The notes below the pieces were generated by a model. The model searched no databases and was not told the origin of the DNA. It saw only the letters and a list, made by a program, of their open reading frames with translations. From Escherichia phage UGJNEcP3, in the sequence record OV876907: a DNA stretch of 64,000 nt. One strand, 5' to 3'. Shown here piece by piece: positions 3,829-62,722 of the stretch (position 1 is the first letter of the stretch; each line of letters begins with the position of its first letter). A program made the translations under genes and the position numbers.

Positions 3829-3854
3829 GAAAAAAGGAATCCCGAAGGATTCCT
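3829..3854 (-). terminator. intrinsic terminator-like hairpin downstream of soc
   Basis: AGGAATC-loop-GATTCCT stem followed by U-run on minus strand (A-run 3829-3835 on plus). Confidence 0.55.
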
Positions 3855-3859
3855 CATAA

Positions 3860-4670: not shown

Positions 4671-5327
4671 TTATTTCCTATTAAAGTTTTCTATCATTCG
4701 TCGATAACAAATATCAGGATATCCATTATCAACAGCTATTTTATTAAATTTGGTGCGTTTAGGTTTATTATTGTAAACCCATAATTCATAAAGCATATCG
4801 TAACTATTCCATATTTCTCCACGCCTAGGATTTGGCAAACCATATCGAGGGGAATCTTTACCACTAAATCTTCCTTTTCTAGCTTTACTCATATTGGCCT
4901 TGGCTTCATCAGATATAATTTTATCTTTATGAGCCAGGCGCATTTTGGCTTTAGTTTCTTCAGGAGTTTTCATCCCTCTAATCCAGGAAGGTTTACCAAA
5001 CATCGGGTTATTTTTTCCCGAAAATGCTTTAGCGTTATTTTCTCTTAACGTGGCTATAGTTCTACTAGTTAATTTAACTCCTTTATTATATCTCATTAAA
5101 TTAACAGCATAATGTAGACCTTTTACTTCGGGATATATTTTTGTTAAAAGCCTATGAGCTACAAAGTGTTCTCTTGGCAATAAAGCAACTAAATTGTTTT
5201 TATCATCAGAACCATTCATACATCTAGGTATAACATGGTGTTCTTCCGTATAATACGATAAAGACCGCTTAGAACCTCTTAATTTTCCTTTAGATATTAA
5301 TTCCTGGTATATTTTTTCGTAATTCAT
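4671..5327 (-). CDS. HNH homing endonuclease
   Basis: EEHHVIPRCMNGSDDKNNLVALLPREHFVAH HNH core plus repeated GKNNPMFGK / NUMOD-like motifs; free-standing between 56 and 61. Confidence 0.7.
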   Translation of the reverse strand: MNYEKIYQELISKGKLRGSKRSLSYYTEEHHVIPRCMNGSDDKNNLVALLPREHFVAHRLLTKIYPEVKGLHYAVNLMRYNKGVKLTSRTIATLRENNAKAFSGKNNPMFGKPSWIRGMKTPEETKAKMRLAHKDKIISDEAKANMSKARKGRFSGKDSPRYGLPNPRRGEIWNSYDMLYELWVYNNKPKRTKFNKIAVDNGYPDICYRRMIENFNRK

Positions 5328-5360
5328 GGGATAATTGTATCATTAATTTGTAAAGCAAGT

Positions 5361-5368
5361 TATAAATA
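5361..5368 (+). promoter_or_regulatory. late promoter TATAAATA (plus strand)
   Basis: tataaata followed by AGGAGG and ATG at 5390. Confidence 0.45.
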
Positions 5369-5389
5369 TTAATTTAACAGGAGGATAAC

Positions 5390-5590
5390 ATGGGCAGTAT
5401 TTTTTACCAAATCTGGAAATTGGCCGAAAAGAAAGACAAGAAAATGATGTTAGGTTTTCTTGCGCTAGACGTATTCCTTTGGAATCTTTTAGTAGTTCCT
5501 GTAGCCGCTAGCCAAGGGGTAATTTTACCAGCGGTTACAATGGAACACGTATTAAGCATAATTGGATTCTTTAGCGGAGTTCCTGTCTAA
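5390..5590 (+). CDS. small hydrophobic membrane protein (66 aa); rare plus-strand gene
   Basis: occupies a gap with no minus ORF; strong SD AGGAGG; late promoter motif upstream; two hydrophobic segments. Confidence 0.45.
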   Translation: MGSIFYQIWKLAEKKDKKMMLGFLALDVFLWNLLVVPVAASQGVILPAVTMEHVLSIIGFFSGVPV

Positions 5591-8302: not shown

Positions 8303-8330
8303 TTGAATCTCCTCGTTAGTTGATAGGTCT

Positions 8331-8360
8331 ATAGTATCACTACCATAGACCGTTGTAAAC
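8331..8360 (-). promoter_or_regulatory. promoter-like element GTTTAC-N18-TACTAT with inverted repeat
   Basis: conserved module ttgataggtctatagtatca; upstream of lipoprotein start. Confidence 0.45.
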
Positions 8361-9385: not shown

Positions 9386-9410
9386 ACAAAAAAAGGAGCC
9401 GAAGCTCCTT
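9386..9410 (-). terminator. intrinsic terminator after gene 41
   Basis: AAGGAGC-CGAA-GCTCCTT hairpin then U7 on minus strand. Confidence 0.6.
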
Positions 9411-17494: not shown

Positions 17495-17526
17495 TGTAAT
17501 TTCCTCTTAAGTAGTTGTTAGGAAGG

Positions 17527-17556
17527 ATAATACCACGTTCCATGTGGTATGTAAAC
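17527..17556 (-). promoter_or_regulatory. promoter-like element GTTTAC-N18-TATTAT
   Basis: upstream of imm. Confidence 0.45.
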
Positions 17557-17558
17557 AC

Positions 17559-20270
17559 TTAAAAGTCAAACATGTCAAATAATGTTGCTTTTTTCTCGTA
17601 GTCGATTTTAGCAGACTCGGTGAAACCGGTAAGAGGTTTGATAAAGGTCTTTTGGAACAATACGTTGTAGTCCATCCAACGGAGGACTTGGTCACGAATC
17701 TGAACTGGAAGTTCAATACCTGATGGCCATGCCATACAAGCTTCACCGAACGGGTTGCCTTCTTTAAGTGGAAGTACATATACCTTTTCACCGTCGACGA
17801 TACGTGGCATAGTCAAATCACCAGCAGAAGCACGCATGTAAGCTAAGCAACCTTTGATGTGATACGGGCATTTAGAACCAGGGAATCCACCTTCATTATA
17901 TTTCTCGATGTTGTTAGCACTGGATACTGCTGCAATGCTTACATAGTTTAGTTCGTTAAATTCCTTATTAAACTGTTTGAAATATTCTTGCAAAGAGGCC
18001 TCGCCTTCCTGAAGCATACGACGGATACATTCTTTCAGAGCTTTCTGAACTGCTTTAGGTGTACTTGATTTCTGAGTTTCGAGACCCATGATTTTCAAGT
18101 GTGGTTCAGCATAACGAGTACCTTCCATGTCCCAAACGTTCAGTGCATAACGTTTCTTGCCTGTCCAGAATCCACCAAGACCTTTAGAACCAAGTGGAGG
18201 TCCTGCGATAGCTTCTCGGTCCATGAACATCAAGTGCTGTTTGTTGTTCATGTATTCACACATCTCACGGAAGCCTGCATCAATAGCAGGTTCCATACGT
18301 TCACGTGCAAATTTATCTAAGAAGTCGACCCAGTGGTTAGTATCACGGAATTTTTCTTCGCCAACTTTATTGATGATGGCATCTGCCTTAACATAAATGG
18401 AGTCAGTATCACCATAGAGCACGAACTTCTGGTTTTCAGTCTTGCACACTCTATTCAGATATTCGTTAACCTTACGTTCAATCCATTGGAGGGCCATTTG
18501 ACCAAACAGTGTGATTGCAGTTGCGTTCCTGAGGTCATAATAACGGAACCATACGTTACCAAGTGCACCATAAAGGGAGTTGATAAGCAACTTACGGTTA
18601 ATCTGAGCAGTGTTACCTGCAACTTCAGTGAGCTCGGCTTTCTTCAACATTTCTCTTAAAGAAGGCCCTGACAGTGCTTTAATCTGGGCTTTGATTTCGT
18701 CAGAGAAGTCAAAACGATAATCGATATCTAGTGGACTATCAACTGAGAGATTAGGATTTTCCAATGCTTCTTTAATTAACTCACCATTACGTTGAGCTGC
18801 AAGCATGTAACCTTTATGTTCTTTACGCTGCAAGAATACCTTGGTGATTTCTGTCGGAATCACACCTTCACGGTCTTTATAATACATCATGCCGTTAGGA
18901 GAGCAACTGTAGGTGTCGCTAGGACGCTGAGCAGTTCCGGCAATATATTCATGTATCGGTGCGTTGGCGAATGTCCCTGCGATGGTCTCTGGGCTTATAT
19001 TCACTTGCCGAATGATACTCGGGTACAGAGATGTAAGGTCAAAACTCATTACATATTTGTAAGCGTTAGGAATAGGTTCCTTAACGAAAGCACCAGGATA
19101 AGGTTGGACCACGTGTGAACGACCCTGTGGAATTACCTTGCCTTGTTCTTTAAGACTATTAAAGATAATAGCGTCCCAAGTCTTAATTGGACTGAACACC
19201 GACTGAATCTGCATCTTGGCATAATAACCCATGTCCAAACTCAGAAGAATGAACTGACGTTTCATATCAATCTGCACTACACGATATACGTCGATAATGT
19301 TATAGGAAATATATCGTTGGTGGTTCGTCTCACGTAACTTAGAGATTGGACCATCATATTTCAACTTACCTACTTTCAATTCATATTCAGAAACATAATC
19401 CAGAGAATAAGAAGGCTGGTTGGTAAAGCTGAATTTTTTATACAGGTCGATATAATCCAGAACAGAGATACCGAACAGTGTAATAATTTCACGAGCACCG
19501 TACATGTTCTCAATAACTTTAACACGAGTTTTACGATGCGGGCTTAATCGCTTAGCAGTGTTCTCACCGAACAGATTTTTCAGACGGTTATAAACGTACG
19601 GCACGTCAAATGACTCAACGTTCCACCCAGTCAAAATCACAGGAGTTTTCTGTTGCCAGAAATTCAGGTACTCAAGCATCATTTCTTCTTCAGAATTAAA
19701 CGAAAGATAAACGATTTTGTCAATGATTTCCTGTGGAACTTCGTCACCACCTTCGTCTTGGAGTTTCTCAGCGATTTTAATCGACCACTCTTCAACAGTA
19801 CCATAAGGCGAAACTAAAAGGTCGAATACATAGAATTTATCGTCAATCGAGTCGTAGTGGGTAATGGCATCGATAGGATGTTTAGCCTGAGCTGGTTCAG
19901 GGAATCCATCAGGAGATGTTACCTCGATGTCGAAGTTAGCAATACGAATCTTAGAAGAATCATATTTGATTTCTTTACGATAGGTATCAGACAAATAGGC
20001 TAATTTATAGTCGTCCATACCCAGGGCTTCGAGACCCATATCGTCCATACGTTTCATCCATTGGGATGCATCACGCATAGAGTCGAATTCTTTCTTAACA
20101 CAACCCTTACCATAGATATCAATGTATTTTACGGCTTGCTCTGGATTGGCATGCATAAACATTGTAGGCTTGTATGGAACTTCACGACTACGTTCGTTAC
20201 CATTTTTATCGATGTAACGTTCGAGAATATTATCACCGATTTGTTCGACTGTCAAATAGAATTCTTGCAT
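17559..20270 (-). CDS. 43: DNA polymerase (gene 43, family B)
   Basis: exo motif FDIE, DLTSLYPSII, KLLINSLYG, YGDTDS; track ORF starts at a TTG 60 nt upstream; ATG at 20270 with SD AAGGAAA matches T4 N-terminus. Confidence 0.9.
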   Translation of the reverse strand: MQEFYLTVEQIGDNILERYIDKNGNERSREVPYKPTMFMHANPEQAVKYIDIYGKGCVKKEFDSMRDASQWMKRMDDMGLEALGMDDYKLAYLSDTYRKEIKYDSSKIRIANFDIEVTSPDGFPEPAQAKHPIDAITHYDSIDDKFYVFDLLVSPYGTVEEWSIKIAEKLQDEGGDEVPQEIIDKIVYLSFNSEEEMMLEYLNFWQQKTPVILTGWNVESFDVPYVYNRLKNLFGENTAKRLSPHRKTRVKVIENMYGAREIITLFGISVLDYIDLYKKFSFTNQPSYSLDYVSEYELKVGKLKYDGPISKLRETNHQRYISYNIIDVYRVVQIDMKRQFILLSLDMGYYAKMQIQSVFSPIKTWDAIIFNSLKEQGKVIPQGRSHVVQPYPGAFVKEPIPNAYKYVMSFDLTSLYPSIIRQVNISPETIAGTFANAPIHEYIAGTAQRPSDTYSCSPNGMMYYKDREGVIPTEITKVFLQRKEHKGYMLAAQRNGELIKEALENPNLSVDSPLDIDYRFDFSDEIKAQIKALSGPSLREMLKKAELTEVAGNTAQINRKLLINSLYGALGNVWFRYYDLRNATAITLFGQMALQWIERKVNEYLNRVCKTENQKFVLYGDTDSIYVKADAIINKVGEEKFRDTNHWVDFLDKFARERMEPAIDAGFREMCEYMNNKQHLMFMDREAIAGPPLGSKGLGGFWTGKKRYALNVWDMEGTRYAEPHLKIMGLETQKSSTPKAVQKALKECIRRMLQEGEASLQEYFKQFNKEFNELNYVSIAAVSSANNIEKYNEGGFPGSKCPYHIKGCLAYMRASAGDLTMPRIVDGEKVYVLPLKEGNPFGEACMAWPSGIELPVQIRDQVLRWMDYNVLFQKTFIKPLTGFTESAKIDYEKKATLFDMFDF

Positions 20271-20330
20271 TTCATTTCCTTTATAGACGAGTGATTGTCT
20301 TTTGTTTGTTGATGAATCATTATACTCCAA

Positions 20331-20348
20331 AAGGGACCGAAGTCCCTT
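20331..20348 (-). other. stable RNA hairpin (8-bp stem, UUCG-type loop) followed by TGGAGTATAATG
   Basis: AAGGGAC-CGAA-GTCCCTT; between small upstream ORF and gene 43 leader. Confidence 0.5.
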
Positions 20349-20351
20349 TGC

Positions 20352-20567
20352 TTAAATTTCTATTGTTTGACGTTTAATGGTTGAATTACCATCTTCGTCT
20401 TTAGTTTTAATCATAGCCTGGAAGACTTGCTGACCGGGGTGTAGTAACTTTTGGAGGTCCTTTTGAAATTCTATTTGGAGCTCTTCGGAAAGGTCAAAAA
20501 TCGTTTGAGTTGGAGAAAGTCCGTATACCTCTTTAAGACGTTCACACGTTTCAATTTCAAGAATCAT
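20352..20567 (-). CDS. hypothetical protein (71 aa)
   Basis: track ORF overlaps regA; ATG at 20567 directly after regA stop. Confidence 0.3.
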   Translation of the reverse strand: MILEIETCERLKEVYGLSPTQTIFDLSEELQIEFQKDLQKLLHPGQQVFQAMIKTKDEDGNSTIKRQTIEI

Positions 20568-20568
20568 A

Positions 20569-20931
20569 TTAATTACCAATGGTATACTTAGACAGTAGTT
20601 CCCAGTCATTTTTCTGCTTAAAGGAAATGACACGGAAGTTATTGGTGATTTCGAACAGCTCAGAGTCGTCTACGATATCAATCAGTCCCCACTCCTTAAG
20701 AAGCTGAGCAATTGAATCTCGACGTTGATAGTCTTCACCATCGATATCAACCTGGCGGCCATCCATACGTAACATCTCTTTAAAGTGGACGATATAATAT
20801 AGCCCTTGCTTTTGCAAAATGTGACAAGATTGATATAGTTTCTTTTCTTTATTATTAGCGATACCCATACGAGTTAGGGTCTCTTTCACTTTCAAGAAGT
20901 CTTCAGGTTGTTTCAGAGTAATTTCAATCAT
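20569..20931 (-). CDS. regA: translational repressor RegA
   Basis: 120 aa, MIEITLKQPEDFLKVKETLTRMGIANNKEK... matches T4 RegA as recalled. Confidence 0.8.
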   Translation of the reverse strand: MIEITLKQPEDFLKVKETLTRMGIANNKEKKLYQSCHILQKQGLYYIVHFKEMLRMDGRQVDIDGEDYQRRDSIAQLLKEWGLIDIVDDSELFEITNNFRVISFKQKNDWELLSKYTIGN

Positions 20932-20937
20932 TTTAAT

Positions 20938-21510
20938 TTACCATTCCAATGCTTTCTTTTTCAAGTCTTTTTGTTCTTTAACATTTTTAGTTACGGATTT
21001 CAGGAATTCGTCCGTAACCAACCCTTTCATCTTCTTAAGCACCGCCGGAAGATGGCCTTTAATTTTATAAGTCTCGAGATAACGATAAGCGTCATCATTA
21101 TTAATTGAATGGTATTTCATCAATAAACGAGTAATAAAAACTACACTAACTTCATCATCATGGGCCTTAGCCCATTTACCAAATCTCTTACCCTTAGGAA
21201 CCGCGTGTAAAAGATAGTTAAAATGACTTTGGTCATCAAGTTTCAAACAGTTAACCATTGCAGCTTGCATAATGCAATCCACATGTTGGCTCAAACTATT
21301 ATCGAGCCAAAATTGATTGTAGTTTTCCGACTGAGCCAAGTTACGTTGGTTCTTACCATATGTGATATCGTTCATAATGGCGAACAATTCGTTTTCAGCC
21401 TTTTCTTTAAATGAATCGGCCAAGGCTTGAATAGCCGCATCGTTACGTTGTTTCCAAGCAACTTCATGTTCGTTCAGTTCAACGTCATCATCAAAAAGAC
21501 TTATAGCCAT
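20938..21510 (-). CDS. 62: clamp-loader small subunit (gene 62)
   Basis: 190 aa immediately upstream of gene 44 with overlapping junction. Confidence 0.7.
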   Translation of the reverse strand: MAISLFDDDVELNEHEVAWKQRNDAAIQALADSFKEKAENELFAIMNDITYGKNQRNLAQSENYNQFWLDNSLSQHVDCIMQAAMVNCLKLDDQSHFNYLLHAVPKGKRFGKWAKAHDDEVSVVFITRLLMKYHSINNDDAYRYLETYKIKGHLPAVLKKMKGLVTDEFLKSVTKNVKEQKDLKKKALEW

Positions 21511-22460
21511 TGGAGCTCCAGAGCAAGTTGGATGAACAGATAAGTCATGTGAATTTCTGGGTTAGCAGCAATACCATGGTATTGGTTATTTTCACCGACA
21601 ATTTCATACATTCTAACAATGCTTGGCCCAGGCAATTTACCATAGAGTTCGTTAGCCAATGTCATAATAAAGTTGGCATAATCATTGACATGGCGTGGGG
21701 CTAATGCACGGAGTTCTTTAAAGTTTTTATCTTTAAGTGCAGCCACTACTTCATCGATAGGCGAATTGGTATTCATTACAATACTCAAAATGCCTGAATC
21801 GATTTTACCACCGGACGAGTAACGGTCTAGTTGGTTAACTGTTTTACGGAAGTCAGGAAAGTTTTGTTTAACTAAAGCAGCAATAACTTTAAGGTCTTCG
21901 ACTTCGATATTTTCGTTTTTACAGATTGCTACAGCACGATGAATCATTTCTTTCATCATGTTTGTTTGGTCGGCCGGAGTGGCTTCACCAAATTTAATAA
22001 CACGACAACGGGACTGAAGTGGACCGATAATACCATCAATATTGTTCGCTGTAATAATTACAGAACAGTTTGAGGAATAGGCTTCTAAGAACGAACGAAG
22101 GTGACGTTGAGCTTCAGCAACACCGGCCCGGTCGAATTCGTCGATAACAATTACCTTACGCTTACCTTCGATAGATTTAGAAGATGCAAAACGAGTAAGT
22201 TCATTACGAACGAAATCAATACGGCAGTCAGAACCGTTAACAAAAAGCATATCTGAATTTGTATCAGCACACAATGCTTTAGCTACGGTAGTTTTGCCAG
22301 TGCCTGGTGAAGCAGAGACTAGGATAATGTTAGGGATTAGGCCCTTATTAACAATGGCTTGGAGAGTTTCTTTATCATGAGCAGGCAGAATACATTCAGA
22401 TAAAGTACCCGGACGATATTTCTGCTCGAACATGAATTCATTATTATTTACTGTAAGCAT
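21501..22460 (-). CDS. 44: clamp-loader ATPase (gene 44, AAA+)
   Basis: Walker A SASPGTGKTT, Walker B VIVIDEFD; 319 aa. Confidence 0.85.
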   Translation of the reverse strand: MLTVNNNEFMFEQKYRPGTLSECILPAHDKETLQAIVNKGLIPNIILVSASPGTGKTTVAKALCADTNSDMLFVNGSDCRIDFVRNELTRFASSKSIEGKRKVIVIDEFDRAGVAEAQRHLRSFLEAYSSNCSVIITANNIDGIIGPLQSRCRVIKFGEATPADQTNMMKEMIHRAVAICKNENIEVEDLKVIAALVKQNFPDFRKTVNQLDRYSSGGKIDSGILSIVMNTNSPIDEVVAALKDKNFKELRALAPRHVNDYANFIMTLANELYGKLPGPSIVRMYEIVGENNQYHGIAANPEIHMTYLFIQLALELQWL

Positions 22461-22497
22461 ATTAATTTCCTCAGGTTTGTTTTTACATTATACTCCA

Positions 22498-22516
22498 AGG
22501 GAGGATATTCCTCCCT
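22498..22516 (-). other. RNA hairpin followed by TGGAGTATAATG upstream of gene 44
   Basis: AGGGAGGA-loop-TCCTCCCT; same arrangement as upstream of gene 43. Confidence 0.45.
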
Positions 22517-22521
22517 ATGCT

Positions 22522-23220
22522 TTAGAACGAGTGGCTTGAGCCTGCTTCCATAGCCAATACATAAGAAGCTTGTGAACCTTCAAACTTGGCTGCGAAACGA
22601 GCATCCTGACCTTCACCACGAGCCCATAGCAATACATGGTAATCAGCCGGCATCATTTTCATATTGGTTTTGTTAATGATGAACTTAAAGTCAGGGCCAT
22701 CATGGTCTGCAACCACTAAGGAATACAATGGACGTGCCAGGTCCTTATCATCAACTTGTTTGTAGCCATTGATTACAATTTTACCATTGTCTACAGTAAT
22801 AGCAAATGTATCAATACCCAGACCGGAGGACACACGCATCAACTGTTGGTAATCTTCGGCTTTAAGGTCAAAAATAACTTCAGCCACTGGGAACGGAATA
22901 GCTTTGCTTGGGAATGCTATTGTGCTTGGGTCGGCAATAGGCCACTTAATAGTTGAACGTTGGTCTTTAATAATTAAGGTGGTTTGGTCTTCACTTACCG
23001 AAACTTCAGCACTTTCAGATACTAAAGACAGAATACTTAAGAAGCCGTTCAAATCATAAATTGCAGCTTCGATATCAAAGGTATCACTTACAGTAGCTTC
23101 ACCATAACTTGCACCTGTTACTGAACGGGTTAGAATAGTGTTACCAGGTTTAAGCATGATACCTGGGTTAATACCGGAGAAGTTTTTCAGAATGTTCAGA
23201 GTTTCTTTAGAGAATTTCAT
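22522..23220 (-). CDS. 45: sliding clamp (gene 45)
   Basis: 232 aa; matches T4 gp45 as recalled. Confidence 0.8.
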   Translation of the reverse strand: MKFSKETLNILKNFSGINPGIMLKPGNTILTRSVTGASYGEATVSDTFDIEAAIYDLNGFLSILSLVSESAEVSVSEDQTTLIIKDQRSTIKWPIADPSTIAFPSKAIPFPVAEVIFDLKAEDYQQLMRVSSGLGIDTFAITVDNGKIVINGYKQVDDKDLARPLYSLVVADHDGPDFKFIINKTNMKMMPADYHVLLWARGEGQDARFAAKFEGSQASYVLAMEAGSSHSF

Positions 23221-23244
23221 AATGTTTCCTTATCAAGACAAAAA

Positions 23245-23673
23245 TTAAGCAATAACGATCATTTGTTTACGAATGGATTCAGGCAGAGATTCAATATACT
23301 CTGGAATCTGGGAAGCAACAATAGCACCGGCTTCAAGCAGTTGTTCGTCAAAATCTACGCAATAATCATCTTCGAGACGTTCAGAACCATCACGGTCGAT
23401 AACCAGTTTAGCACCTGCGGCCAGCGAATCGTTATAATGACGACGCATGATTTCTACCCACTTATCGGATACGTCGTTATCAATGATACCGTAGAGCATG
23501 AACTTGGTTTCTTGTGGAAGAGACTGCAGACGACGTGCAGAGTCGGTATCAATATTCAGTACCCATGATTTACGAATACGGTTTTGATTGTGTGGGTTGG
23601 AATCGGTACGAATGGTTTTAACTTGGATATCTTTAACAGTAATAGCGTTAGCAAACATAATATTTTCTCTCAT
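23245..23673 (-). CDS. hypothetical protein in the rpbA position
   Basis: 142 aa ORF downstream of gene 45; assignment positional only. Confidence 0.35.
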   Translation of the reverse strand: MRENIMFANAITVKDIQVKTIRTDSNPHNQNRIRKSWVLNIDTDSARRLQSLPQETKFMLYGIIDNDVSDKWVEIMRRHYNDSLAAGAKLVIDRDGSERLEDDYCVDFDEQLLEAGAIVASQIPEYIESLPESIRKQMIVIA

Positions 23674-27680: not shown

Positions 27681-27723
27681 ATGTTCTCCTCAGTTGGTTC
27701 ATTTTATCATCCGAATATAAAGC

Positions 27724-27745
27724 AAAAAAGGAGCCTAAGCTCCTT
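27724..27745 (-). terminator. intrinsic terminator-like hairpin
   Basis: AAGGAGC-CTAA-GCTCCTT followed by U-run on minus strand. Confidence 0.5.
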
Positions 27746-27900
27746 TACCAATTAATACGCCATACAGAGGTTCATGAGAAGACCTGAACTTGATAGGCTT
27801 ATAGGTAATAGTACCTTCATTTTCCGCTTTAATACGAGCAGCTTCAAATTTAAGTATCATCTCATTTTTGTCAGATTTAATCTTATCAAAATCCATCGAA

Positions 27901-30422: not shown

Positions 30423-30491
30423 AATAATTTCCTCAGTTTAAAAATTTATAATCCGTAGGACCATTATACTCTGGTCCCAAGAGTTTGTAAA

Positions 30492-33641: not shown

Positions 33642-33751
33642 ACTCCATATCGATTAAATCATTGTTTGAAGGTTCATTATAATCTATTTCGGAACCGTTG
33701 TAAACCGGTTCCTCTGGCTCGGTAGTTTCCCACCGAGCGACATACCACGGC

Positions 33752-42916: not shown

Positions 42917-43013
42917 AACTTTCTCCTCATTAGTTGATAGGTGTATAGTATCACGTTCCTAGAGGATGTAAACACTAAAACGAAAAAAGGTCCCACCGAA
43001 GTGAGACCTTTGG

Positions 43014-46159: not shown

Positions 46160-46618
46160 TTAAAGATAGATTACTTTCGTGCTGGTTTTACCTTCTAAAC
46201 GTTTAGAGTTAACAAATGCCATACGACATTTAAGGGAATATCCTTTATCAGGATGTTTACGATCTACGGTCATACCTAGCCATAAGGTTTTATCGGTAAT
46301 TTCGAGACGCAGTGGGCGATACACCTTACCTGGGACAATTTCAGATTCTACGTCAGGAAGAGGCTCCTGGATTAAAAATTCATGGATTTCTTTAACATGG
46401 TTATGGAGCTTCTTGAACAAAGAGAAAACATATTTTTCGTCAATTTCACGTTGGATAGCACGGTCCAACAAGTGATTAGAGTACTTAATAAAGAAAGCTG
46501 GGACACCGCTCTTAATGGCGGCTTTTTTGATGGACGCGTTAAGTTCACGAAATTCGGTTTCGAACTGACGACGTAATTTGTTGCGGCGGATGAATACTTC
46601 TGAATTAATTTCTGACAT
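46160..46618 (-). CDS. regB: endoribonuclease RegB
   Basis: 152 aa; EVFIRRNKLRR...HLLDRAIQREIDE...RLEITD..LWLG... matches T4 RegB as recalled. Confidence 0.8.
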   Translation of the reverse strand: MSEINSEVFIRRNKLRRQFETEFRELNASIKKAAIKSGVPAFFIKYSNHLLDRAIQREIDEKYVFSLFKKLHNHVKEIHEFLIQEPLPDVESEIVPGKVYRPLRLEITDKTLWLGMTVDRKHPDKGYSLKCRMAFVNSKRLEGKTSTKVIYL

Positions 46619-53079: not shown

Positions 53080-53157
53080 TTTATTCTCCATTTCACTCTG
53101 TTGTTTTGATAGGTCTATAGTATCACACCTATAGACCTTGTATACTGTTTTATGCAA

Positions 53158-57767: not shown

Positions 57768-57845
57768 AGTATTTCCTTCAGTTGGTTAACGTTTTGTAAT
57801 CCATGAGGACATTATACCCTGTCCTCTGAGGGTTGTAAACATTTT

Positions 57846-58244: not shown

Positions 58245-58302
58245 TATGTTCTCCTCAAATTATGGGCTCATAATATCTTAATCATGAGCCCATGTAAACG
58301 TT

Positions 58303-62656: not shown

Positions 62657-62693
62657 TTTGATTTCCGTTTGGTTAGTTTGTTTTGATAGGTCT

Positions 62694-62722
62694 ATAGTAT
62701 CACGCCTATAGACCTTGTAAAC
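62694..62722 (-). promoter_or_regulatory. promoter-like element GTTTAC-N17-TACTAT with perfect 9-bp inverted repeat
   Basis: ggtctatag (62689-62697) / ctatagacc (62706-62714). Confidence 0.5.

What the first reader, a model, noticed from the sequence alone, without database searches (positions are those of the whole stretch)
20312..22516. Hairpin plus TGGAGTATAATG motif upstream of genes 43 and 44
Both replication-gene leaders are preceded by a strong GC hairpin directly followed by TGGAGTATAATG (20331-20348 and 22498-22516), with no GTTTAC -35. This may be a separate promoter class, or a processing or translational-control element; T4 gp43 is known to autoregulate through an RNA operator in its leader.
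Basis: partly seen in the sequence, partly recalled or inferred. Interest (0 to 1): 0.5.

Follow-up and report, generated by a model that had tools for sequence, protein, structure and literature searches.

The report
Stem-loop plus promoter cassettes, T4-type
The two hairpin-plus-TGGAGTATAATG sites are real, but the one before the DNA polymerase gene is the counterpart of phage T4's already mapped middle promoter P43 sitting against a conserved hairpin, and the one before gene 44 is a genus-specific, dispensable copy, so this is ordinary T4-type regulation rather than a new promoter class.

Summary
On the minus strand, GC hairpins at 20330-20349 and 22498-22516 are each followed directly by TGGAGTATAATG. 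They lie upstream of genes 43 and 44 of a Dhakavirus that is 100% identical to phage UGJNEcP4. Neither site has a -35 element.

Site 43 is orthologous to the T4 regA-43 spacer, which reads GGGGC-TTCG-GCCCC ttaTTTGGAGTATAAT. The published T4 middle promoter P43 starts 5 nt after that TATAAT. Hairpin and -10 hexamer are kept in all but one (L016) of the T4-like lineages examined. Three distant lineages carry a canonical MotA box between them. In T4 and this phage the hairpin loop (CTTC) sits at about -30 instead.

The real gp43 operator is a different, weaker hairpin at 20285-20300. Its loop AAUCACUC matches T4's in 7 of 8 positions, it shows covariation, and it lies downstream of the predicted start.

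At site 44 the hairpin is conserved with covariation in every lineage that keeps a 45-44 spacer. A perfect TATAAT occurs only in Dhakavirus, there is no MotA box, and the cassette is missing in the isolated phage Bp7.

GGAG after the hairpin could also be a RegB cleavage site; regB is in the window. In IME08, both copies coincide with published TTGGA|G virion-DNA end hot spots, which sequence preference alone explains.

Low novelty.

The parts
20330..20349 (-). GC hairpin AAAGGGAC-UUCG-GUCCCUUU, 2 nt after the stop codon of ORF43.1 (TAA 20352-20354). It is a C(UUCG)G-type intercistronic hairpin followed by only 4 U. Its loop bases CTTC (20342-20339) fall at about -30 to -27 of the promoter below.
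   Evidence: Sequence. Fold -10.9 kcal/mol, z -3.2. A hairpin is present at this position in all examined T4-like lineages except L016, with all scored stem pairs canonical and several pair types per position. The minus-strand copy is not flagged as a classical terminator.
20318..20329 (-). TGGAGTATAATG. The -10 hexamer TATAAT is at 20324-20319. This is the orthologue of the -10 region of T4 middle promoter P43. The GGAG at 20328-20325 is a candidate RegB site in read-through RNA.
   Evidence: T4 has TTGGAGTATAAT at the same place. The listed T4 P43 start, 29933, lies 5 nt after that hexamer. A -10-like hexamer is conserved in all lineages but L016.
20312..20313 (-). Predicted transcription start of the P43 orthologue, 6-7 nt after the -10 hexamer. 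This is inferred, not measured.
   Evidence: Based on the spacing in T4 control promoters from the same published table.
20285..20300 (-). Homologue of the gp43 translational operator hairpin: AGAC-AAUCACUC-GUCU, followed by AUAAAGGAAAUGAAAUG (Shine-Dalgarno and start codon of gene 43).
   Evidence: The loop matches T4 AAUAACUC in 7 of 8 positions. Stems covary across 10 lineages with 100% canonical pairs. The structure is weak (-2.9 kcal/mol), as expected for a protein-bound operator. Operator described in PMC3014915.
22498..22516 (-). GC hairpin AGGGAGGA-AUA-UCCUCCCU in the 45-44 spacer, 5 nt after the gene 45 stop codon (TAA 22522-22524).
   Evidence: Fold -12.5 kcal/mol. A hairpin is present here in 13 distinct lineages, with all scored pairs canonical and 2-4 pair types per position. 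The loop varies among near-identical Dhakaviruses while the stem is invariant.
22486..22497 (-). Second copy of TGGAGTATAATG, with TATAAT at 22492-22487. It is a possible genus-specific internal promoter for genes 44-62-regA, with a predicted start near 22480-22481, and/or a RegB site (GGAG 22496-22493).
   Evidence: Sequence. It is invariant in the 8 other Dhakavirus genomes that keep the spacer. Relatives keep GGAGTA but have TATTAA, TACAAA or TATTGA instead of TATAAT. There is no MotA box (3 of 9 or fewer). It is absent from Bp7 and L009.
46160..46618 (-). regB gene, encoding the endoribonuclease that cuts GG^AG. It is the trans-acting factor in the processing alternative.
   Evidence: Pfam REGB_T4, E = 1.6e-69. 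Annotated as 'endoribonuclease' in the identical genome.

Best explanation
These are two intercistronic 'stem-loop plus -10' cassettes of the T4-type replication gene cluster 45-44-62-regA-43.1-43.

Site 43. The hairpin marks the end of the upstream transcription unit, acting as a weak terminator or 3'-end stabiliser. It is fused to the orthologue of T4's middle promoter P43. RNA polymerase carrying AsiA-remodelled sigma-70 uses the perfect TATAAT. It needs no -35, and the -30 position is occupied by the CTTC of the hairpin loop, a degenerate MotA box. Transcription starts near 20312-20313 and yields a monocistronic gene 43 mRNA. Its leader lacks the GC hairpin and begins 12 nt before the true gp43 operator hairpin at 20285-20300.

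Site 44. The hairpin is the conserved 45-44 intercistronic hairpin. It probably limits read-through or protects gene 45 mRNA, which would set the gp45 to gp44/62 ratio. In Dhakavirus it is followed by the same -10 context, which probably gives an auxiliary, non-essential internal promoter.

What is shown: the sequences, the orthology, the conservation and the covariation. What is inferred: the start sites, MotA dependence in this phage, and any activity at site 44.
For: - T4 has the same layout: GGGGC-TTCG-GCCCC ttaTTTGGAGTATAAT, then the operator.
- The published table of T4 middle promoters lists P43 with start 29933, which is 5 nt after that TATAAT. Control promoters from the same table start 7 nt after theirs.
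- In T4 the gene 43-45 region is strongly MotA-dependent.
- motA and asiA are present in the identical genome.
- Canonical MotA-box promoters exist in this phage, for example a hairpin followed by TTTGCTTTA-N11-TAAAAT at window 27746-27700.
- Hairpin, -10 hexamer and operator hairpin are kept, in that order, in all lineages except L016 (L026 and L032 keep hairpin and hexamer but no operator was scored for them). CGG4-1-like, myPSH1140-like and Moon-like phages have TGCTAT plus a 12-bp spacer between hairpin and -10. The T4/Dhakavirus form therefore looks like a compressed version of that layout.
- In this phage CTT lies exactly in the 13-bp-spacer register.
- MotA tolerates degenerate boxes, whereas the -10 must be excellent.
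- There is precedent in T4 for a weak terminator followed by a middle promoter, at mobE/nrdB.
- PeSL-like sequences at the gene 43 locus of JS98 were already noted in print.
Against: - The MotA-box match is poor: 4 of 9 at site 43 and 3 of 9 or fewer at site 44, against 8-9 of 9 for controls.
- T4 P43 itself has its GCTTC 2 bp outside the canonical spacing. How MotA acts there is therefore unclear, and orthology carries that uncertainty over.
- At site 44 the hexamer is not a usable -10 in the sister lineages (TATTAA, TACAAA and TATTGA all lack the T at -7), although GGAGTA is conserved there.
- No T4 promoter is listed between 29933 and 32626.
- The cassette is absent from the isolated phage Bp7.
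- No transcript data exist for any Dhakavirus.
Confidence: 0.6

Rival explanations
1. RNA-level processing cassette. In read-through polycistronic RNA, RegB cuts GG^AG immediately 3' of the hairpin. The upstream mRNA (gene 45, or regA-43.1) is left with a protective 3' hairpin. The downstream mRNA (44-62-regA, or 43) gets a new 5' end only about 13 nt upstream of the promoter-derived one. This does not exclude the promoter explanation.
For: - RegB cuts GGAG/U in intergenic regions. The consensus for strong sites is GG*AGRAYARAA, and RegB processing stimulates gp43 synthesis in T4.
- regB is in the window.
- GGAGUAUAAUG matches 4 of the 7 downstream consensus positions.
- GGAG is unpaired in the site 44 fold.
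- At site 44, GGAGTA is invariant in Dhakavirus, PEi20, VR25-like and CIP9-like phages, while the stem sequences and the hexamer differ. This fits an RNA or GGAG constraint better than a -10 constraint.
Against: - At site 43, GGAG is lost (GTAG) in VR25-like phages and absent in CGG4-1-like phages, while the -10 is kept.
- Purine-rich -16 to -13 positions are also typical of early and middle promoters here and in T4, so GGAG may simply be promoter context.
- Most middle transcripts with an intergenic GGAG are reported to be RegB-resistant.
- T4 has no GGAG in its 45-44 spacer.
- No cleavage data are available.
Confidence: 0.3
2. The site 44 TATAAT has no function of its own. Only the hairpin matters, and the identity to the P43 12-mer arose by two substitutions from an ancestral GGAGTATTAAG, or by a short conversion tract.
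For: - The sister lineages have TATTAA, TACAAA or TATTGA.
- There is no MotA box and no -35.
- Bp7 and L009 lack the whole cassette, and a homing-endonuclease-like ORF fills the spacer.
- T4 lists no promoter there.
Against: - The 12-mer is invariant in all 9 Dhakavirus genomes that keep the spacer, while the adjacent loop shows 5 variants. At 96-99% overall identity this is weak evidence.
- The inserted ORF in Bp7 brings its own TATAAT about 60 nt before gene 44. That hints that a promoter is useful at this position.
Confidence: 0.25
3. A new hairpin-dependent promoter class, in which the extruded hairpin or cruciform replaces the -35 or MotA box.
For: Both sites place a GC hairpin exactly where the -35/-30 element should be, in the same register. 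The MotA-box match is poor.
Against: - There are only two copies in the genome, and one copy per genome in 17 other T4-like contigs.
- Site 43 is orthologous to a promoter already classed as a middle promoter.
- In three lineages the same promoter has a normal MotA box, with the hairpin further upstream. The hairpin is therefore not needed for promoter function.
Confidence: 0.05
4. The GC hairpin is itself the binding site for gp43 (or RegA), that is, a translational operator.
For: Its proximity to gene 43, and the known autoregulation of gp43.
Against: - The operator homologue, with the conserved AAUNACUC loop, is a different hairpin at 20285-20300.
- The GC hairpin lies 60-80 nt from the AUG and upstream of the predicted start.
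- Its loop is UUCG, which one commentary states binds no protein (PMC4371310).
- RegA sites are unstructured and AU-rich and lie at the AUG.
Confidence: 0.03
5. The selected feature is at the DNA level. TTGGA|G is a preferred cleavage site, assigned to terminase by the authors, and the two copies are kept as packaging or cleavage hot spots.
For: In IME08, which is 96% identical here, the read-start hot spots ranked 3 and 11 are cccttttgga|gtataatgat and ctcccttgga|gtataatgta. These are exactly the two motif copies.
Against: - Most hot spots lie inside genes, with no hairpin or promoter nearby.
- The genome has 60 TTGGAG sites and 19 TTGGAGT sites. About 8 of those 19 are in the top 20, so both copies being hot follows from sequence preference alone (about 0.16).
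- TTGGAG at site 43 is also conserved in T4, where no such preference is documented.
Confidence: 0.05

Closest known systems
T4 middle promoter P43 (MotA/AsiA sigma-appropriation class), with start 29933 in Hinton 2010 Table 1 (PMC2988021, citing Guild 1988 and Hsu & Karam 1990)
   Same: - Same locus: the spacer before gene 43.
- Same order of elements: stop codon, C(UUCG)G hairpin, TTGGAGTATAAT, operator hairpin, Shine-Dalgarno sequence and AUG.
- Identical 11-mer TGGAGTATAAT.
- No -35 element.
- Only a GCTTC/ACTTC core in the hairpin loop near -30.
   Different: - The hairpin-to-hexamer distance is 2 bp shorter here. That puts CTT in the canonical 13-bp register, whereas in T4 it is 15 bp.
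- The leader before the operator is about 12 nt longer.
- The operator loop is AAUCACUC rather than AAUAACUC.
- An extra ORF (43.1) precedes the hairpin.
- No transcript mapping exists for this phage.
PeSL / PmSL promoter-stem-loop cassettes of T4-like phages (Arbiol 2010, PMC2839356; Comeau 2014, PMC4122927)
   Same: It is a composite of a stem-loop (terminator) immediately upstream of a sigma-70-type promoter, then a Shine-Dalgarno sequence and start codon. 'PeSL-like sequences' at the gene 43 locus of JS98, a Dhakavirus, were already mentioned in print. Site 44 lies at an indel hot spot with homing-endonuclease insertions.
   Different: - PeSLs have a full -35 (TTTACW) and PmSLs a TGCTT Mot box downstream of the stem-loop. 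Here the stem-loop overlaps the -35/-30 position and neither box is present.
- There are only two copies, in the conserved core and not in hyperplastic regions.
- It is not dispersed: one CTTCGG-type copy per genome.
T4/RB69 gp43 translational operator
   Same: A true homologue exists in this leader at 20285-20300. It has a 4-bp stem and an 8-nt loop, making it 16 nt long like RB69's, and it lies adjacent to the Shine-Dalgarno sequence.
   Different: The flagged GC hairpin is a separate upstream element.
RegB endoribonuclease target sites (GG*AGRAYARAA)
   Same: An unpaired intergenic GGAG followed by an A/U-rich tract. regB is present. In T4, RegB processing is reported to raise gp43 synthesis.
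   Different: Only 4 of the 7 downstream consensus positions match. The sites lie in middle-gene spacers rather than in the Shine-Dalgarno sequences of early genes. Cleavage here is untested.
T4 mobE terminator plus nrdB middle promoter arrangement (PMC2988022)
   Same: A weak intrinsic terminator limits read-through, and a middle promoter in the next spacer re-initiates transcription for an essential downstream gene. The arrangement is thought to tune subunit stoichiometry.
   Different: A different locus. In that case the terminator and the promoter do not overlap.

Membership tests
T4-type MotA/AsiA-dependent middle promoter | Excellent sigma-70 -10 element (TAnnnT) | tested here: met
   A perfect TATAAT at both sites.
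T4-type MotA/AsiA-dependent middle promoter | MotA box (a/t)(a/t)TGCTT(t/c)a centred at -30, 11-13 bp upstream of the -10 | tested here: not met
   Site 43 matches 4 of 9 at spacer 13 (GGGACTTCG, only the CTTC core). Site 44 matches 3 of 9 or fewer at spacers 11-13. Controls match 8-9 of 9. The validated T4 P43 itself matches only 5 of 9, at spacer 15.
T4-type MotA/AsiA-dependent middle promoter | No sigma-70 -35 element | tested here: met
   At most 3 of 6 to TTGACA and 2 of 6 to GTTTAC. Neither site is listed by the promoter scan.
T4-type MotA/AsiA-dependent middle promoter | The phage encodes MotA and AsiA | tested here: met
   In the 100%-identical genome OV877765, a MotA-like activator is annotated at 165939-166574 and an anti-sigma factor at 164250-164525. 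This rests on annotation only. Canonical MotA-box promoters are present elsewhere in the genome.
T4-type MotA/AsiA-dependent middle promoter | Orthology to an experimentally mapped middle promoter | tested here: met
   Met for site 43 only, through T4 P43. Not met for site 44: no T4 promoter is listed between 29933 and 32626.
T4-type MotA/AsiA-dependent middle promoter | MotA- and AsiA-dependent primary transcript start | not testable with these tools
   Needs RNA 5'-end mapping in wild-type versus motA-mutant infections.
PeSL / PmSL cassette | Stem-loop immediately upstream of a promoter, followed by a Shine-Dalgarno sequence and start codon | tested here: met
PeSL / PmSL cassette | A complete early promoter (-35 TTTACW, N17, -10) or a TGCTT Mot box plus -10, downstream of the stem-loop | tested here: not met
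   The stem-loop occupies the -35/-30 position and neither box is present. True PeSL and PmSL examples do exist elsewhere in the window: hairpins at 43011-42986, 9410-9393 and 3855-3834 followed by GTTTAC, and 27746-27727 followed by TTTGCTTTA.
PeSL / PmSL cassette | Many dispersed copies, enriched in hyperplastic regions and at indels | tested here: inconclusive
   There are only 2 copies, in the core replication module, and one per genome in 17 contigs. However, the 45-44 spacer is an insertion hot spot.
Intrinsic (Rho-independent) terminator | GC-rich stem-loop followed by a U tract (at least 5 U in 8 nt) | tested here: not met
   The stems qualify, but only 4 U (site 43) or 2 U (site 44) follow. 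The scan does not list the minus-strand copies. T4's site 43 hairpin has UUAUUU.
gp43 translational operator | Hairpin with an 8-nt loop AAUAACUC-like, adjoining the Shine-Dalgarno sequence of gene 43 | tested here: not met
   The flagged GC hairpin has a UUCG loop and lies 60-80 nt upstream of the AUG. The feature is met instead by the hairpin at 20285-20300.
RegB cleavage site | Unpaired intergenic GGAG/U with an A-rich 3' context (GGAGRAYARAA), and regB present | tested here: inconclusive
   GGAG is present and unpaired at site 44. The downstream match is 4 of 7. regB is present. Cleavage is not testable here.

The most novel reading that the evidence does not exclude
The hairpin-UGGAGUAUAAU junction is a deliberately dual-use signal. 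On DNA it is a -35-less promoter whose -30 contact is built into the loop of the upstream unit's hairpin. On read-through RNA the same GGAG is cut by RegB just after the protective hairpin. Early read-through transcripts and middle promoter-initiated transcripts therefore converge on nearly the same operator-bearing gene 43 mRNA, and in Dhakavirus on a similar gene 44 mRNA. This would explain why RegB raises gp43 synthesis in T4.
Probability: 0.15. Interest if true: 0.5.

Novelty: new member of a known kind. Interest (0 to 1): 0.25.

Why it matters
The main value is for correct annotation. The result assigns the gene 43 promoter, the real gp43 operator and the conserved 45-44 hairpin in Dhakaviruses, which are used in phage therapy work.

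It also shows that the classical T4 P43 is an atypical middle promoter across several genera. Its -30 region lies inside a C(UUCG)G hairpin, and comparison with three distant lineages suggests it is a compressed form of a normal 'hairpin, MotA box, -10' layout.

If the dual promoter and RegB-site reading held, it would give a simple mechanism for the old observation that RegB stimulates DNA polymerase synthesis. That reading is untested.

Tried and rejected
1. **Concerted evolution or gene conversion between the two cassettes.** Within-genome local alignment scores between site 43 and site 44 were no higher than cross-genome scores. The means were 13.7 against 13.7, and the permutation p was 0.54. 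Rejected.
2. **A dispersed mobile cassette.** CTTCGGNCCC-N1-6-GGAGTATAAT occurs once per genome in 17 IMG/VR T4-like contigs. There are only 2 hairpin-linked copies in this genome. Rejected.
3. **A mini-ORF.** GGAG-N4-AUG at the end of the motif gives AUG-UAA at site 44 and a 22-codon ORF at site 43. The AUG is absent in T4, PEi20 and the Mosigvirus-like phage. Rejected as chance.
4. **An N-terminal extension of gp44 from GTG** in the PEi20 and CIP9-like phages. It is not conserved.
5. **Known RNA families.** Rfam gave no relevant hit.
6. **The DNA-end hot spot as the reason the motif is conserved.** Sequence preference for TTGGAGT explains it.
7. **Long-range pairing** of AAGCAUA (22516-22522) with UAUGCUU (22455-22461), which would hide the gene 44 AUG in read-through RNA. 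It appears in the minimum-energy fold but at an ensemble frequency of 0.014, and it is not conserved outside the genus. Left as a note.
8. **Primary papers.** Hsu & Karam 1990, Yeh et al. 1998, Guild et al. 1988, Miller et al. 2003 and Zuber et al. 2007 are not held in the library. The T4 P43 assignment therefore rests on the table in PMC2988021.
Full report
**What the window is**

Bases 17500-23300 are 100% identical to Escherichia phage UGJNEcP4 (Dhakavirus). They are 96-97% identical to IME08, WG01, QL01 and others.

All genes here lie on the minus strand:

| Gene | Window coordinates |
|---|---|
| 45 | 22522-23220 |
| 44 | 21501-22460 |
| 62 | 20938-21510 |
| regA | 20569-20931 |
| ORF43.1 | 20352-20567 |
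| 43 | 17559-20270 |

ORF43.1 matches Pfam Phage_RB18_ORF43.

Read on the minus strand, the 43.1-43 spacer is TAA gc AAAGGGAC-TTCG-GTCCCTTT TGGAGTATAATG. The 45-44 spacer is TAA agcat AGGGAGGA-ATA-TCCTCCCT TGGAGTATAATG.

The hairpins fold at -10.9 and -12.5 kcal/mol. The 12-mer is exact only at these two places in the window. In the whole 170.6-kb genome there is one further copy, inside the terminase gene.

A repeated 12-mer alone means little. With two mismatches allowed, there are 10 hits against 7.8 expected. The context is what stands out. Of 40,755 pairs among 286 GC hairpins in the genome, only two pairs share the 12 bases directly 3' of the stem, and this pair is one of them.

There is no -35 element. 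The window's early promoters, by contrast, are GTTTAC-N17/18-TAtaaT.

**Site 43 is the orthologue of a known T4 promoter**

The T4 regA-43 spacer reads TAA gcaa GGGGC-TTCG-GCCCC ttaTTTGGAGTATAAT atatcaAGAGCCTAATAACTCGGGCT...ATG. That is the same order of elements, with an identical 11-mer.

Hinton's review lists the T4 middle promoter P43 with start site 29933 (PMC2988021). This position is 5 nt after that TATAAT. Other promoters in the same table start 7 nt after theirs.

Middle promoters combine a sigma-70 -10 element with a MotA box at -30 and have no -35. In T4 the gene 43-45 region is strongly MotA-dependent (PMC6024815).

The identical UGJNEcP4 genome has annotated motA and asiA genes. 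It also has many canonical MotA-box promoters. One example is a hairpin followed by TTTGCTTTA-N11-TAAAAT upstream of gene 47, at window 27746-27700.

**Comparative evidence**

I collected 32 T4-like loci through gp44. I extracted the sequences upstream of genes 43 and 44 and named lineages by their best matches.

Upstream of gene 43, every lineage except L016 keeps a GC hairpin and then a -10-like hexamer (TATAAT, TAAAAT or TATACA). In ten lineages I also scored a hairpin with loop AAU(A/C/U)ACUC abutting the Shine-Dalgarno sequence; L026 and L032 were not among them.

All scored pairs in both hairpins are canonical, with several pair types per position. This is covariation.

In CGG4-1-like, myPSH1140-like and Moon-like phages, a canonical MotA box (TGCTAT) lies 12 bp upstream of the -10, between the hairpin and the hexamer. 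In T4, the Mosigvirus-like phage, PEi20, VR25-like, CIP9-like phages and Dhakavirus, those roughly 13-15 bp are missing and the hairpin abuts (T)GGAGTATAAT. The T4/Dhakavirus form therefore looks like a compressed version of an ordinary 'hairpin, MotA box, -10' cassette. This is inference.

In this phage the loop's CTT falls exactly in the 13-bp-spacer register, but the box matches only 4 of 9 positions. T4's matches 5 of 9, two bp out of register. P43 is thus an atypical middle promoter in T4 as well. MotA is reported to tolerate degenerate boxes, while the -10 must be excellent.

**The operator**

The homologue of the T4/RB69 operator (PMC3014915) is AGAC-AAUCACUC-GUCU at 20285-20300. It has the following properties:

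- It is 16 nt long, as in RB69.
- Its loop is identical to T4's at 7 of 8 positions.
- It is thermodynamically weak (-2.9 kcal/mol).
- It lies downstream of the predicted start.

A P43-initiated mRNA would contain this operator but not the GC hairpin.

**Site 44**

A hairpin follows the gene 45 stop codon in all 13 distinct lineages, with covariation, and usually has a UUCG loop. The UUCG hairpin was first described in T4 mRNA (PMC4371310).

The sequence after the hairpin is not conserved as a promoter:

| Lineage | Sequence after the hairpin |
|---|---|
| Dhakavirus | GGAGTATAATG |
| PEi20 and CIP9-like | GGAGTATTAAG |
| VR25 | GGAGTACAAAG |
| L031 | GGAGTATTGAG |
| T4 | TATAAT, with its first bases inside the stem |
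| Other lineages | Nothing comparable |

There is no MotA-like box at site 44 in Dhakavirus, and T4 lists no promoter there.

Within Dhakavirus the stem and the 12-mer are invariant in all nine genomes that keep the spacer. The loop shows five variants.

Bp7, an isolated phage, and contig L009 lack the whole cassette. A 192-aa ORF starts at the gene 45 stop codon and fills the spacer. In L011 a related ORF is inserted directly after hairpin-TGGAG and uses that GGAG as its Shine-Dalgarno sequence.

Site 44 is therefore dispensable. At best it is an auxiliary, genus-specific promoter.

**The RNA-processing alternative**

RegB cuts GG^AG in intergenic regions. The consensus for strong sites is GGAGRAYARAA, and RegB processing stimulates gp43 synthesis in T4. 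regB is at window 46160-46618.

GGAGUAUAAUG matches 4 of the 7 downstream consensus positions. A cut there would leave the hairpin at the 3' end of the upstream RNA. It would also create a 5' end about 13 nt upstream of the promoter-derived one.

In favour of this reading, GGAGTA at site 44 is conserved where the hexamer is not. Against it, GGAG is lost at site 43 in VR25-like and CGG4-1-like phages while the -10 stays. In addition, purine-rich -16 to -13 positions are normal promoter context. I rate this at 0.3. It is compatible with the main explanation.

**An unexpected link**

The IME08 termini paper (PMC3105952) lists read-start hot spots in virion DNA with the consensus TTGGA|G. Rank 3 is cccttttgga|gtataatgat and rank 11 is ctcccttgga|gtataatgta. 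These are exactly the two motif copies, and IME08 has the same sequences. Rank 17 is the early promoter TGGAGTATAATC.

Mapping the top 20 onto this genome shows that most lie inside genes, with no hairpin or promoter nearby. The genome has 19 TTGGAGT sites, of which about 8 are in the top 20. The coincidence is therefore explained by sequence preference. I treat it as a side observation.

**Comparison with known systems**

- **Closest match:** T4 P43 itself.
- **PeSL/PmSL cassettes:** the general design of a stem-loop plus a promoter is that of these cassettes (PMC2839356, PMC4122927). The first of those papers already mentions PeSL-like sequences at the gene 43 locus of JS98. The defining -35 or Mot box downstream of the stem is not met here, and the element is not dispersed.
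- **Precedent in T4:** a weak terminator followed by a middle promoter occurs at mobE/nrdB.
- **Classical terminator:** neither hairpin qualifies, because the U tract is too short.
- **Rfam:** no relevant family matches.

**Verdict**

The sequence observation is real and the conservation shows it is functional. It is not a new promoter class. Site 43 is already known through its T4 orthologue. Site 44 is a new, lineage-restricted and dispensable instance. Interest is low to moderate.

The primary mapping papers could not be read. The T4 assignment therefore rests on the review table.

Noticed in passing
window 20325/20326 and 22493/22494 (minus strand), and about 20479/20480 (plus strand): In the closely related phage IME08, published high-frequency read starts in virion DNA have the consensus TTGGA|G and were interpreted as terminase-preferred cuts. 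Ranks 3 and 11 fall exactly in the two motif copies, and rank 1 lies inside ORF43.1. Five of the top 20 lie in the gene 43-45 region of IME08 (28.8-32.7 kb).
   Followed up: partly
L095 (Bp7) 4979-5557; L009 3521-3990; L011 3406-3996: The 45-44 spacer is an insertion hot spot. A homing-endonuclease-like ORF of about 192-196 aa replaces the hairpin-motif cassette in Bp7 and L009, or follows directly after hairpin-TGGAG in L011. In L009 the ORF is fused in frame to gene 44.
   Followed up: partly
window 22506-22508 (loop of the site 44 hairpin): The loop is hypervariable among Dhakaviruses that are 96-99% identical. The variants are AATAT, AGATT, AAATT, AATTT and AATCT, while the stem and the 12-mer are invariant.
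   Followed up: partly
window 33691-33712, 30456-30479, 57805-57826, 58262-58293, and the repeat at 62688-62715 / 53111-53138 / 8326-8351 (minus strand): Many early promoters have their -35 (GTTTAC) or -10 element inside the loop or stem of an inverted repeat. A roughly 28-bp palindromic unit, AGGTCTATAG..CTATAGACCT, recurs three times directly after GTTTACA. The 5' ends of these early mRNAs would form stem-loops.
   Followed up: no
window 27700-27746, 42986-43011, 9393-9410, 3834-3855 (minus strand): Canonical composite cassettes are present elsewhere in the window. One is a hairpin followed by TTTGCTTTA-N11-TAAAAT (PmSL-like, upstream of gene 47). Several are UUCG hairpins with a T tract followed by GTTTAC early promoters (PeSL-like).
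   Followed up: partly
window 22516-22522 and 22455-22461 (minus strand): AAGCAUA, which overlaps the gene 45 stop codon, is complementary to UAUGCUU, which contains the gene 44 AUG. In read-through RNA this could mask the gene 44 start unless a ribosome terminates at gene 45. It appears in the minimum-energy fold, but at low ensemble frequency, and it is not conserved outside the genus.
   Followed up: partly
genome OV877765 13242 (+), 77429 (+), 155816 (-): Canonical MotA-box plus TATAAT matches point antisense to the local genes. They may be anti-sense or 'anti-late' transcripts like those described in T4.
   Followed up: no
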